From Bacteroidales bacterium (GTDB lineage Bacteria > Bacteroidota > Bacteroidia > Bacteroidales > UBA12077): a stretch of 33,884 nucleotides of DNA. Every line of letters begins with the position of its first letter. The stretch's first letter is position 1. The position numbers were made by a program, and so were the translations under genes. Below the pieces are notes generated by a model. That model did not search any database. It was not told the origin of the DNA and saw nothing but the letters and a program-made list of their open reading frames with translations. Of this stretch, positions 28,762-28,905 are shown piece by piece. The stretch is taken from the NCBI GenBank assembly GCA_028282585.1, contig JANQHR010000115.1:1-33884 (forward strand), written 5' to 3'.

Positions 28762-28905
28762 TTAACCACAGCAACCAGTACTTCCACAAGTTAAAGTTGC
28801 AGCTTTACCTTGAGTAATTGTTGGTTTTTGAATACCTGCAGTAACTTTTGGTTTGCTCTCTTTTTGCTTTTTTTTCTTAAGAGCATCAAATTTTAAAATT
28901 TCCAT
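28762..28905 (-). CDS. Putative RiPP precursor peptide, 47 aa: MEILKFDALKKKKQKESKPKVTAGIQKPTITQGKAATLTCGSTGCCG
   Basis: Translated by hand from ATG at 28905 to TAA at 28762; below the ORF-track size cut-off. A-rich initiation region, Lys-rich leader and Cys/Gly/Thr/Ser-rich C-terminus, directly upstream of two rSAM/SPASM genes. Confidence 0.85.
   Translation of the reverse strand: MEILKFDALKKKKQKESKPKVTAGIQKPTITQGKAATLTCGSTGCCG

What the first reader, a model, noticed from the sequence alone, without database searches (positions are those of the whole stretch)
28762..28905. Unannotated 47-aa precursor ending TLTCGSTGCCG
Seen: the peptide has an amphipathic N-terminus (ILKFDAL), a basic stretch (KKKKQK) and a small-residue tail with C40, C45, C46, T37, T39, T43 and S42. 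There is no aromatic or acidic residue after position 16. Inference: ILKFDAL is the RRE recognition motif (compare FxLD-type leaders). The lack of aromatics argues against cyclophane chemistry and favours Cys-to-carbon thioethers (sactionine/ranthionine), epimerisation or C-terminal modification.
Basis: partly seen in the sequence, partly recalled or inferred. Interest (0 to 1): 0.85.

Follow-up and report, generated by a model that had tools for sequence, protein, structure and literature searches.

The report
New radical-SAM peptide precursor family
The 47-codon reading frame is a real gene for a small peptide that neighbouring iron-sulfur enzymes most likely cross-link through its three cysteines, and it belongs to a rare, undescribed family found only in a few uncultured Bacteroidales.

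Summary
The ORF at 28762-28905 (-) exists exactly as described. It is not a chance ORF. Twenty-three homologues of 47-67 aa keep E2, L4, F6, C40, G44, C45 and C46 invariant. Six tandem copies sit directly upstream of the orthologous rSAM/SPASM gene in a congeneric MAG with the same gene order.

The window operon reads LytTR, peptide, two rSAM/SPASM, DUF3857/transglutaminase-like protein, ABC exporter, FtsX-type permease. It is a ~10.5-kb island inserted between housekeeping genes that are adjacent in 5 of 5 congeners.

The rSAMs form their own clade of 8 proteins. They score best against PapB and SCIFF thioether maturases but below every cut-off. The closest solved structure is CteB.

A complex model puts peptide residues 1-15 on the N-terminal three-strand/three-helix domain and C40/C45 beside SPASM cysteines. 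The score was 0.75 against 0.00 for the best control.

Verdict: a genuine RiPP precursor of a new family. Thioether cross-linking is the most likely chemistry but is only inferred. No expression or product data exist.

The parts
28762..28905 (-). Precursor peptide gene, 47 aa plus stop
   Evidence: ORF; 23-member family alignment; adjacency to rSAM genes here and in G016
28888..28905 (-). Codons 1-6 (MEILKF): conserved leader N-terminus and proposed RRE-binding strand
   Evidence: E2, L4 and F6 invariant and M1, I3, K5 at least 90% in 23 sequences. In the complex model they contact rSAM1 residues 26-32 and 450-455 with the least expected error.
28765..28788 (-). Codons 40-47 (CGSTGCCG): core motif C-x(4)-C-C with S42 three residues before C45
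   Evidence: C40, G44, C45 and C46 invariant in 23 of 23. S/T/D at the position of S42 in 22 of 23 (counted by eye). C40 and C45 contact SPASM Cys341/Cys416 in the model.
28689..28753 (-). Hairpin (8-bp outer stem GCUGUCCC/GGGGCAGC) followed by a U-rich run, 9 nt after the stop codon. Possible partial terminator or mRNA stabiliser.
   Evidence: RNA fold -34.3 kcal/mol, z -2.57, 1 of 200 shuffles as stable. In G016 each precursor copy read is followed by a hairpin plus T-run (two copies read).
28999..29029 (-). Direct repeat AAACCGCTTA / AAACCGTTAG, 21 bp start to start, 94-124 nt upstream of the ATG. Candidate LytTR operator.
   Evidence: Read. The pattern search found this single site in the window, with 0.07 expected and 7 of 100 shuffles giving at least 1. 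The pattern was chosen post hoc, and the LytTR consensus is recalled.
29125..29472 (-). Stand-alone LytTR DNA-binding protein (115 aa), inside the island
   Evidence: PF04397, E 2.6e-17; island limits
27194..28612 (-). rSAM/SPASM maturase 1 (472 aa) with an N-terminal RRE-like domain (residues ~8-72)
   Evidence: Pfam Radical_SAM, Fer4_12 and SPASM. NCBIfam best hit PapB, 186.4 bits against a cut-off of 340. CteB is the closest solved chain. Model pLDDT 89.7.
25765..27171 (-). rSAM/SPASM maturase 2 (468 aa), 44% identical to maturase 1
   Evidence: It is a separate branch of the same 8-member clade.
23365..25752 (-). DUF3857 + transglutaminase-core protein (795 aa) with an N-terminal hydrophobic signal-like segment. 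Proposed leader peptidase.
   Evidence: PF12969 and PF01841. It is 30% identical to the G016 counterpart, with GDCKDQ, NHCI and FF(L/C)D conserved. The role is inferred.
21739..23349 (-). ABC exporter half-transporter (536 aa) without a C39 peptidase domain
   Evidence: ABC_membrane and ABC_tran. It aligns to positions 160-681 of the peptide cleavage/export model TIGR01193, so the N-terminal peptidase part is missing. 49% identical to the G016 counterpart.
19336..21723 (-). Duplicated FtsX/MacB-type permease (795 aa)
   Evidence: PF02687 and PF12704. ADOP and DarB models score below cut-off. 34% identical to the G016 counterpart.
19200..29730 (.). Approximate limits of the ~10.5-kb island that carries the whole cluster
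   Evidence: Homology to the congener G008 stops near 19200 and resumes near 29730. The flanking polyprenyl synthase and ArsR/QueD genes are about 0.6 kb apart in 5 of 5 congeners.

Best explanation
The ORF encodes the precursor of a ribosomally made, post-translationally modified peptide (RiPP) of a previously undescribed family.

Shown: the peptide belongs to a conserved family with a fixed N-terminus (MEILKF) and a fixed core pattern C-x(4-9)-[S/T/D]-x-G-C-C. Its genes lie directly upstream of a private clade of rSAM/SPASM enzymes. The whole operon (peptide, rSAM, DUF3857/transglutaminase-like protein, ABC exporter, FtsX-type permease) is conserved and sits here on an inserted island.

Inferred mechanism:
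1. The leader N-terminus docks as an extra strand on the RRE-like N-terminal domain of the rSAM enzyme(s).
2. The core reaches the active site, with a Cys thiol near auxiliary cluster I, as in CteB.
3. 5'-deoxyadenosyl radical chemistry joins Cys sulfur to a carbon of a nearby residue. The best candidate is the conserved S/T/D three residues before the CC pair, giving small thioether rings. The two divergent rSAMs of this window probably install different links.
4. The ABC exporter moves the modified peptide across the inner membrane. The signal-bearing transglutaminase-fold (papain-like) protein removes the leader, possibly after the conserved Ala/Thr-Gly around residue 24. The FtsX-type permease serves export or self-protection.
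5. The adjacent LytTR protein regulates the promoter through the 21-bp-spaced repeats.

My odds: genuine rSAM-modified precursor about 0.9; thioether as the modification about 0.55; transglutaminase-like protein as leader peptidase about 0.4. The confidence given for this entry (0.7) is for the statement as a whole, weighted towards its core claim.
For: Family. 23 sequences of 47-67 aa were aligned, with E2, L4, F6, C40, G44, C45 and C46 invariant. They came and carry 14 different longest-contig lengths, so there are at least about 14 loci. The 81%-identical homologue differs only between residues 14 and 34.

Linkage. G016 has six tandem copies directly upstream of a 40%-identical rSAM. All 6 rSAM clade members outside the window share a longest-contig length with a family peptide: 8053, 561560, 53119, 17503, 13755 and 2151. 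Only G016 was verified on DNA. The 2151-nt contig can hold little beyond the two genes.

Enzyme. CxxxCxxC and seven SPASM Cys are conserved. The best NCBIfam hits are PapB, nif11, SCIFF, CcpM and QhpD maturases. CteB is the best solved chain by sequence (E 1.4e-29) and by fold (E 5e-21, 470 aligned columns). The clade of 8 has 100/100 support, and there is an E-value gap from 1e-116 to 6e-62.

Binding model. ipSAE was 0.79, 0.75 and 0.75; the best of 3 controls was 0.00. That mark was reached by 58 of 80 solved complexes and 2 of 110 mismatched pairs. The runs agree in at least 80% of contacts, and the partner pLDDT is at least 46. The tool says the counts hold only roughly, because my own alignments were used and small molecules rode along. 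The interface is peptide 1-6, 8-10, 12-13, 15, 39-41 and 45 with rSAM1 26-32, 35, 64-72, 323-333, 341, 416 and 450-471. The N-terminal domain fold is E8-12, E17-22, E27-32, H33-43, H48-55, H59-72, with pLDDT mostly above 90.

Operon. Gaps between genes are 12-22 nt. The order is conserved with G016 at 30-49% identity.

Island.

Hairpins after the precursor genes.

Transglutaminase-like proteases as RiPP leader peptidases: lasso B proteins, a passage in PMC10885120.
Against: There are no expression, peptide or product data. The chemistry rests on family resemblance only. Both rSAMs score far below every NCBIfam cut-off (best 186 against 340), so they belong to no characterised family, and SPASM enzymes also do non-thioether chemistry.

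The N-terminal domain gives no PqqD/RRE signal by sequence. There was no PF05402 hit at E<=10 for the three N-termini tested. hhalign against PqqD-positive QhpD-like N-termini gave probability 2.9%.

The complex model may pass from memory of solved rSAM-peptide complexes (CteB, SuiB, ChlB entries). The partner's own fold is uncertain (pLDDT under 50 in at least one run).

Whole-gene dN/dS among the G016 paralogues is only moderately below 1 (0.32-0.97) and above 1 for pairs with copy 5.

G016 needs only one rSAM for a three-Cys peptide, so the second rSAM here is unexplained.

The Gly-24 column is alignment-dependent: it is near-invariant in A3, but in A8 V21 is near-invariant instead.

The LytTR repeat pattern was chosen after seeing it, and 7 of 100 shuffles match.
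Confidence: 0.7

Rival explanations
1. The peptide is a genuine precursor, but the rSAM enzymes carry out something other than Cys thioether formation. Options are C-C or C-O cross-links, epimerisation, cyclopropanation or oxidation of Cys. The invariant Cys residues would then serve as an auxiliary-cluster ligand during catalysis, or as disulfide or metal ligands in the product.
For: Neither rSAM reaches any family cut-off. Fold neighbours include anSME (Cys/Ser oxidation), TigE, SuiB, SkfB and the epimerase EpeE as well as CteB. The core of the main subfamily is long and Lys/Arg-rich, with many other possible target residues.
Against: The three best-scoring characterised relatives that the sources name for a reaction are thioether formers: PapB and SCIFF, and CteB. 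The only invariant core residues are the three Cys and one Gly. No aromatic residue is conserved, which argues against the cyclophane type. The anSME target motif is absent by reading.
Confidence: 0.25
2. The product acts as a secreted signal: a LytTR-controlled autoinducing peptide. It is not an antimicrobial. This rival concerns the role, not the biosynthesis.
For: A stand-alone LytTR protein lies inside the island. A 21-bp-spaced direct repeat lies upstream of the precursor gene. There is a single precursor copy in this genome.
Against: G016 has six diverged precursor copies and a different regulator type, a pattern more typical of bacteriocin-like diversification. No sensor kinase or receiver domain was seen in the island. 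The putative cores are cationic.
Confidence: 0.2
3. The ORF is a chance open frame, or a conserved non-coding leader region of the rSAM operon.
For: Short ORFs are abundant in this AT-rich DNA. No Pfam or NCBIfam family matches it. No RNA data exist.
Against: There are 23 homologues with in-frame length variation, and the start, the stop and the Cys pattern are kept at 30-83% identity. There are six intact paralogues in one array. The amino-acid pattern is conserved while the middle diverges. The complex model is specific relative to its controls.
Confidence: 0.02

Closest known systems
SCIFF peptides and their maturase CteB / Tte1186 (ranthipeptides; TIGR03974)
   Same: The maturase is an rSAM with an N-terminal peptide-binding domain and a full seven-Cys SPASM domain. 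CteB is the closest solved structure by sequence (E 1.4e-29) and by fold. The core is small, Cys-bearing and Thr/Ser/Gly-rich at the C-terminal end of a ~45-aa precursor. A passage in PMC10352776 describes CteB and Tte1186 as making gamma-thioethers between Cys and Thr.
   Different: TIGR03974 scores 150 and 147 bits against a cut-off of 425. The peptide matches no NCBIfam model, SCIFF included. It has three Cys, not six. The leader is different. The accessory genes differ (transglutaminase-like protein, FtsX permease). The host is a Bacteroidales MAG.
PapB-family ranthipeptide maturases (NF047865; freyrasin type)
   Same: This is the best NCBIfam hit of both rSAMs (186.4 and 175.6 bits, covering residues 87-425).
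   Different: The scores are below the cut-off of 340. The Cys-X3-Asp repeats that I recall as the PapB substrate motif are absent. The window peptide has no acidic residue after E16. Where homologues have Asp, it precedes the Cys (D-x-G-C-C).
NxxC-type streptococcal rSAM RiPP (beta-thioether between Cys and an Asn three residues upstream). Recalled, not from a call.
   Same: The spacing matches: a conserved polar residue (S/T/D here) three residues N-terminal to the Cys (22 of 23 sequences).
   Different: No sequence comparison was made, because I held no sequence of it. The taxon, leader and operon all differ. The resemblance is a lead only.
GG-Bacteroidales rSAM system (TIGR04148 maturase, with its peptide family and pseudo-rSAM)
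   Same: It is an rSAM/SPASM peptide system in the same phylum. Bacteroidales RiPP clusters of this kind are described in PMC10352776 (passages).
   Different: TIGR04148 scores 84.8 and 83.3 bits against a cut-off of 300. There is no pseudo-rSAM and no C39 peptidase domain on the ABC exporter. The leader carries no double-glycine model hit.
Lasso-peptide B proteases (transglutaminase-like cysteine proteases, MEROPS C96)
   Same: The fold family is a transglutaminase core with a conserved Cys/His/Asp pattern. It is known to remove RiPP leaders (passage in PMC10885120).
   Different: The protein here is ~800 aa with DUF3857 and an N-terminal signal-like segment, so it probably acts outside the cytoplasm. 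No homology to McjB-type proteins was tested. The role is an inference from conserved synteny only.

Membership tests
RRE-dependent rSAM/SPASM RiPP (general kind) | Short precursor gene next to the maturase gene and co-oriented with it | tested here: met
   The peptide stop codon lies 149 nt upstream of the rSAM1 start on the same strand. The arrangement is the same in G016.
RRE-dependent rSAM/SPASM RiPP (general kind) | Conserved leader and conserved core pattern across homologues | tested here: met
   E2, L4, F6, C40, G44, C45 and C46 are invariant in 23 sequences.
RRE-dependent rSAM/SPASM RiPP (general kind) | Maturase with CxxxCxxC and a SPASM auxiliary-cluster Cys set | tested here: met
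   C98, C102 and C105 plus C341, C359, C404, C407, C413, C416 and C436 are invariant or nearly so in 34 sequences. Pfam SPASM matches both.
RRE-dependent rSAM/SPASM RiPP (general kind) | RiPP recognition element (PqqD-like winged helix) in the maturase | tested here: inconclusive
   The fold is right: three strands then three helices at residues 8-72, with high pLDDT, and the full-length fold match to CteB covers 470 columns. Sequence tests fail: no PF05402 hit at E<=10 and hhalign probability 2.9%.
RRE-dependent rSAM/SPASM RiPP (general kind) | The leader binds the maturase | tested here: inconclusive
   This is a model only: ipSAE 0.75 against a best control of 0.00. The mark was reached by 58 of 80 solved complexes and 2 of 110 mismatched pairs. 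The result may reflect memory of solved rSAM-peptide complexes.
RRE-dependent rSAM/SPASM RiPP (general kind) | The peptide is expressed and modified | not testable with these tools
   No RNA run is listed. There is no proteomics.
PapB-family ranthipeptide (NF047865) | Maturase scores above the curated cut-off | tested here: not met
   186.4 and 175.6 bits against 340.
PapB-family ranthipeptide (NF047865) | Precursor with Cys-X3-Asp/Glu motifs (recalled definition) | tested here: not met
   There is no D or E after residue 16 in the window peptide.
SCIFF (TIGR03974 maturase and SCIFF peptide model) | Maturase and peptide match their NCBIfam models above cut-off | tested here: not met
   150.4 and 147.1 bits against 425. 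The peptide matches 0 families at E<=0.1.
Sactipeptide / ranthipeptide chemistry | Thioether from Cys sulfur to the alpha (sacti) or beta/gamma (ranthi) carbon | not testable with these tools
   This needs MS/MS and NMR of the product.
GG-Bacteroidales rSAM system (TIGR04148) | Maturase above cut-off, and a peptidase-containing ABC transporter | tested here: not met
   84.8 and 83.3 bits against 300. The ABC protein aligns only to positions 160-681 of TIGR01193 and has no peptidase domain in Pfam.

The most novel reading that the evidence does not exclude
The family defines a new RiPP class. Its hallmark is a vicinal Cys-Cys pair plus one upstream Cys, tied by one or two private rSAM/SPASM enzymes into a compact multi-thioether knot. 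This could include a link type not yet described, such as a thioether to Ser/Thr/Asp three residues upstream or links from both adjacent cysteines. Maturation is completed outside the cytoplasm by a secreted DUF3857/transglutaminase-fold leader peptidase instead of a C39 transporter domain.
Probability: 0.25. Interest if true: 0.75.

Novelty: new member of a known kind. Interest (0 to 1): 0.58.

Why it matters
Radical-SAM-modified peptides are a productive source of new cross-link chemistry and of narrow-spectrum antimicrobials, and few have been characterised from Bacteroidota. This finding supplies a complete and compact test case.
- The precursor family has a sharply defined six-residue recognition motif and a minimal core of eight residues holding all the invariant positions.
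- The window holds two divergent maturases, whereas relatives hold one.
- There is a candidate leader peptidase of a type not yet linked to rSAM RiPPs in the papers I could search.
- The cluster sits on a cleanly delimited 10.5-kb island, which could be moved into a heterologous host as one piece.

The short-core variant in this window (23 residues after Gly24, or 14 from K34) is the smallest member of the family, so it is the easiest one for structure elucidation.

Tried and rejected
1. Single-peptide searches were nearly blind. In 100 relatives no hit was better than E 0.12. The true G016 homologues appeared only at E 3.45 and 6.39 and were recognised by reading the ORFs.

2. The search for related loci with rSAM1 alone in genome contigs: 79 pattern matches, none confirmed. 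With alignment A2: 6 loci, of which only L029 (the G016 contig) is a close relative. The other five are 27-32% identical Firmicutes-type rSAMs.

3. The metagenome-contig scan with A2 kept 80 loci out of 379 relatives. A six-frame regex scan of all 114 loci then held found a MEILKF-type peptide only in the window and in G016 loci. L038, the best partial match (41% over one segment), is a different system.

4. Order-level sample: 0 of 400 other genomes have the peptide profile. Family level: 1 of 55 others. I report this as 'not found in those searched'.

5. PqqD/RRE sequence tests were negative.

6. Whole-gene dN/dS among the G016 paralogues is not strongly informative.

7. Sigma-70-type promoter scan: 11 sites against 10.7 expected, which says nothing. 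The only terminator-like call was on the other strand of the same hairpin.

8. GC content of the island (0.25-0.31) is only slightly below that of the flanks (0.28-0.34) and is not diagnostic. No flanking direct repeats or integrase were seen.

9. Two long proteins in the profile search were set aside. P0008 was read and is an unrelated tandem-repeat protein. P0007 (3458 aa) was not read. P0010 (35 aa, truncated) was left out of the alignments.

10. Sequencing runs: no RNA holder is listed. The only holder is one DNA run (X1, labelled coral metagenome), which may be the source of the window.

11. Literature. 'MEILKF' occurs in 0 papers. 'DUF3857' occurs in 2 unrelated papers, listing only. 'radical SAM + RiPP + Bacteroidetes + transglutaminase' gave 1 unrelated paper. 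'SPASM + thioether + Bacteroidota + precursor peptide' gave 1 unrelated paper. For PMC10352776 I read passages only, and it mentions neither transglutaminase nor DUF3857. The 'Bioinformatic Atlas of Radical SAM...' paper is cited by 24 held papers, but I did not read it. That paper and the closed supplementary tables could already list this cluster family.

13. I considered a prenylation reading: a C-terminal CC-type motif plus the polyprenyl synthase at 18185-19162. I rejected it. The synthase is a conserved housekeeping neighbour outside the island (78-88% identical in 5 of 5 congeners), and the GCC motif is not C-terminal in most homologues.
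Full report
OBSERVATION. The minus strand of the window carries an ATG-started 47-codon ORF at 28762-28905. It encodes MEILKFDALKKKKQKESKPKVTAGIQKPTITQGKAATLTCGSTGCCG. There is no aromatic or acidic residue after E16. The peptide matches no Pfam or NCBIfam model (0 families each) and occurs once in its own genome.

SURROUNDINGS. On the same strand, with gaps of 12-22 nt between the enzyme genes, the genes run in this order:
- a stand-alone LytTR protein (29125-29472)
- the peptide
- rSAM/SPASM 1 (27194-28612)
- rSAM/SPASM 2 (25765-27171; 44% identical to the first)
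- a 795-aa DUF3857 + transglutaminase-core protein (23365-25752)
- a 536-aa ABC exporter without a peptidase domain (21739-23349)
- a 795-aa duplicated FtsX/MacB-type permease (19336-21723)

The next gene is a polyprenyl synthase. It and the ArsR/QueD pair on the other side are about 0.6 kb apart in 5 of 5 congeneric genomes examined. In the window they are 11 kb apart. Homology to congener G008 stops near 19200 and resumes near 29730. The seven genes therefore form a ~10.5-kb inserted island. The polyprenyl synthase is not part of it.

IS THE ORF MORE THAN CHANCE? Yes.
- A word-index search found one 48-aa protein, 81% identical, with all differences between residues 14 and 34.
- Among 100 relatives, only one congener (G016) has a close rSAM homologue (40% identity). 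Directly upstream of it lie six tandem ORFs of 57-67 aa. Each begins MEIL(K/I)F(D/N) and carries C-x9-C-C.
- A profile of these, searched against 1.84 billion representatives, gave 11 hits at E<=1e-3. Nine are short peptides of the same build and two are long repetitive proteins: P0008 was read and is unrelated, and P0007 was not read.
- An alignment-based word search gave 21 proteins of 47-67 aa. All are unnamed or 'hypothetical protein' from Bacteroidales MAGs.
- I aligned 23 distinct sequences. The 35-aa fragment P0010 was left out, and six of the 23 come from one genome. E2, L4, F6, C40, G44, C45 and C46 are invariant, and M1, I3, K5 and A36 are at least 90% conserved.
- The residue three positions before the CC pair is S, T or D in 22 of 23 (my count).
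- Most members share a long conserved stretch, GV(T/S)SNVKTNQxLKRKLIAxVxC. The window peptide, P0002 and P0009 form a short-core variant.
- An Ala/Thr-Gly followed by Val/Ile lies near residue 24. Its alignment to the window sequence is ambiguous.

LINKAGE TO THE ENZYMES.
- In the 5.8-billion-protein collection, rSAM1 has only 8 relatives at E<=1e-116: itself, rSAM2 and six others at 38-71% identity. The next hit is at 6e-62 (119 proteins at E<=1e-20 among 8000 scored candidates).
- The eight form a 100/100-supported clade with three branches: rSAM2; rSAM1 + P0027; and the G016-type five.
- Each of the six outside the window shares its longest-contig length with a family peptide. This is circumstantial except for G016, where I read the DNA.
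- G016 keeps the order peptides, rSAM, DUF3857/transglutaminase, ABC, FtsX permease, at 30%, 49% and 34% identity for the last three. This cluster lies on a different contig from G016's polyprenyl/QueD pair.
- The family is rare. The peptide profile was found in 1 of 55 other genomes of the taxonomic family and in 0 of 400 sampled from the order. It was in none of 80 metagenome loci fetched with the rSAM alignment.

WHAT THE ENZYMES LOOK LIKE.
- Both rSAMs have CxxxCxxC and the seven-Cys SPASM pattern.
- The best NCBIfam hits are PapB ranthipeptide maturase (186 and 176 bits, cut-off 340), then SCIFF, nif11, CcpM and QhpD maturases. All are below cut-off.
- The closest solved chain is CteB, entries 5WGG and 5WHY, titled 'Structural Insights into Thioether Bond Formation in the Biosynthesis of Sactipeptides'. 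The match holds by sequence (E 1.4e-29) and by fold (E 5e-21 over 470 columns).
- The AlphaFold model (pLDDT 89.7) shows an N-terminal unit of three strands and three helices at residues 8-72. This is the topology of a RiPP recognition element.
- Sequence tests for PqqD-type homology were negative.

BINDING MODEL. I folded full-length rSAM1 (34-row alignment) with the peptide (13-row alignment), three 4Fe-4S clusters and SAM.
- ipSAE was 0.79, 0.75 and 0.75, against 0.00 for the best of 3 controls.
- The mark was reached by 58 of 80 solved complexes and 2 of 110 mismatched pairs.
- The runs agree in at least 80% of contacts, and the partner pLDDT is at least 46.
- The tool warns that the counts hold only roughly here, and that a pass may come from memory of solved complexes.
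- Confident contacts: peptide 1-6, 8-10, 12-13 and 15 lie on strand 26-32, helix 64-72 and the C-terminal helices 450-471. Peptide 39-41 and 45 lie next to Cys341 and Cys416.
- By the SPASM pattern (recalled assignment), Cys341 and Cys416 are ligands of auxiliary cluster I.
- This supports binding but does not show it. It agrees with the invariance of residues 1-6 and of the Cys residues.

MECHANISM.
- Shown: a conserved precursor family, its linkage to a private rSAM/SPASM clade, a conserved operon, and an island.
- Inferred: leader docking on the N-terminal domain, radical-mediated thioether formation from the Cys residues, export by the ABC protein, and leader removal by the transglutaminase-fold protein. 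That protein keeps its Cys/His/Asp pattern, has a hydrophobic N-terminal segment by inspection, and is a long ~800-aa form compared with 610-690 aa for the other DUF3857 copies in four genomes. Transglutaminase-like proteases do remove lasso-peptide leaders (passage in PMC10885120).
- Why this window has two maturases and G016 one is unexplained.

REGULATORY DETAILS. A hairpin follows the stop codon by 9 nt (28698-28753, then a U-run; z -2.57). The two G016 copies I read are each followed by a hairpin plus T-run. The ~35 nt before the ATG resemble those of the G016 copies. A direct repeat, AAACCGCTTA / AAACCGTTAG, spaced 21 bp start to start, lies 94-124 nt upstream of the ATG. It is the only such site in the window (0.07 expected; 7 of 100 shuffles give at least 1). 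It resembles the LytTR half-site consensus as I recall it. I chose the pattern after seeing the repeat.

COMPARISON AND NOVELTY. The system works like a CteB/PapB-type ranthipeptide or sactipeptide pathway, but it fails every membership test I could run: NCBIfam cut-offs, peptide models and substrate motifs. No held paper contains the leader motif or links DUF3857 to rSAM peptides. The rSAM-RiPP atlas paper and the supplementary tables were not readable, so prior listing in a large-scale survey cannot be excluded. I file it as a new member (a new family) of a known kind. There is a 0.25 chance that its cross-link pattern or its maturation route is new enough to count as a new class.

LIMITS. 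There are no expression or product data. No RNA run is listed (recorded under Tried and rejected).

Noticed in passing
window 28999-29029 (-): A pair of 10-nt direct repeats (AAACCGCTTA / AAACCGTTAG), 21 bp start to start, lies between the LytTR gene and the precursor gene. It is the only such site in the window. The second copy fits the LytTR half-site consensus as I recall it.
   Followed up: partly
window ~19200 and ~29730: The whole cluster is a ~10.5-kb insertion between a polyprenyl synthase and an ArsR/QueD pair that are neighbours in 5 of 5 congeners. No integrase or flanking repeats were seen. The G016 cluster sits elsewhere in its genome.
   Followed up: yes
L028 (G016:C22) 8700-12500: The six precursor copies sit in ~0.6-0.9-kb repeat units. 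These units also carry remnants of the rSAM 5' end, for example the 42-aa ORF at 10980-11108, which resembles rSAM residues ~38-78. The array seems to have grown by duplicating the precursor together with the start of the enzyme gene.
   Followed up: no
L028, ~85-110 nt upstream of each precursor ATG (alignment A5, columns ~8-35): A conserved hairpin lies upstream of every G016 precursor copy, with what look like compensatory changes between copies: AGTGCAAGCCCCTTGCGCT against AGTGCACGTCGGTTGCACT. It is absent from the window's upstream region.
   Followed up: no
window 23365-25752; G016:C22:4525-6957: The cluster-linked DUF3857/transglutaminase proteins are a long form (open frames of 799 and 819 aa), with ~200 extra N-terminal residues. 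The other 13 DUF3857 hits in four genomes have open frames of 609-685 aa.
   Followed up: partly
The leader family may serve a second enzyme lineage.
   Followed up: no
L038 5520-5687 (+): This is an unrelated metagenome contig. It carries an rSAM that appears split or frameshifted (ORFs 4132-5082 and 5205-5480), followed by a 55-aa acidic-leader peptide ending ASGCGAITKCGGCIKIN and then an ABC exporter. It is a separate candidate thioether-peptide cluster.
   Followed up: no
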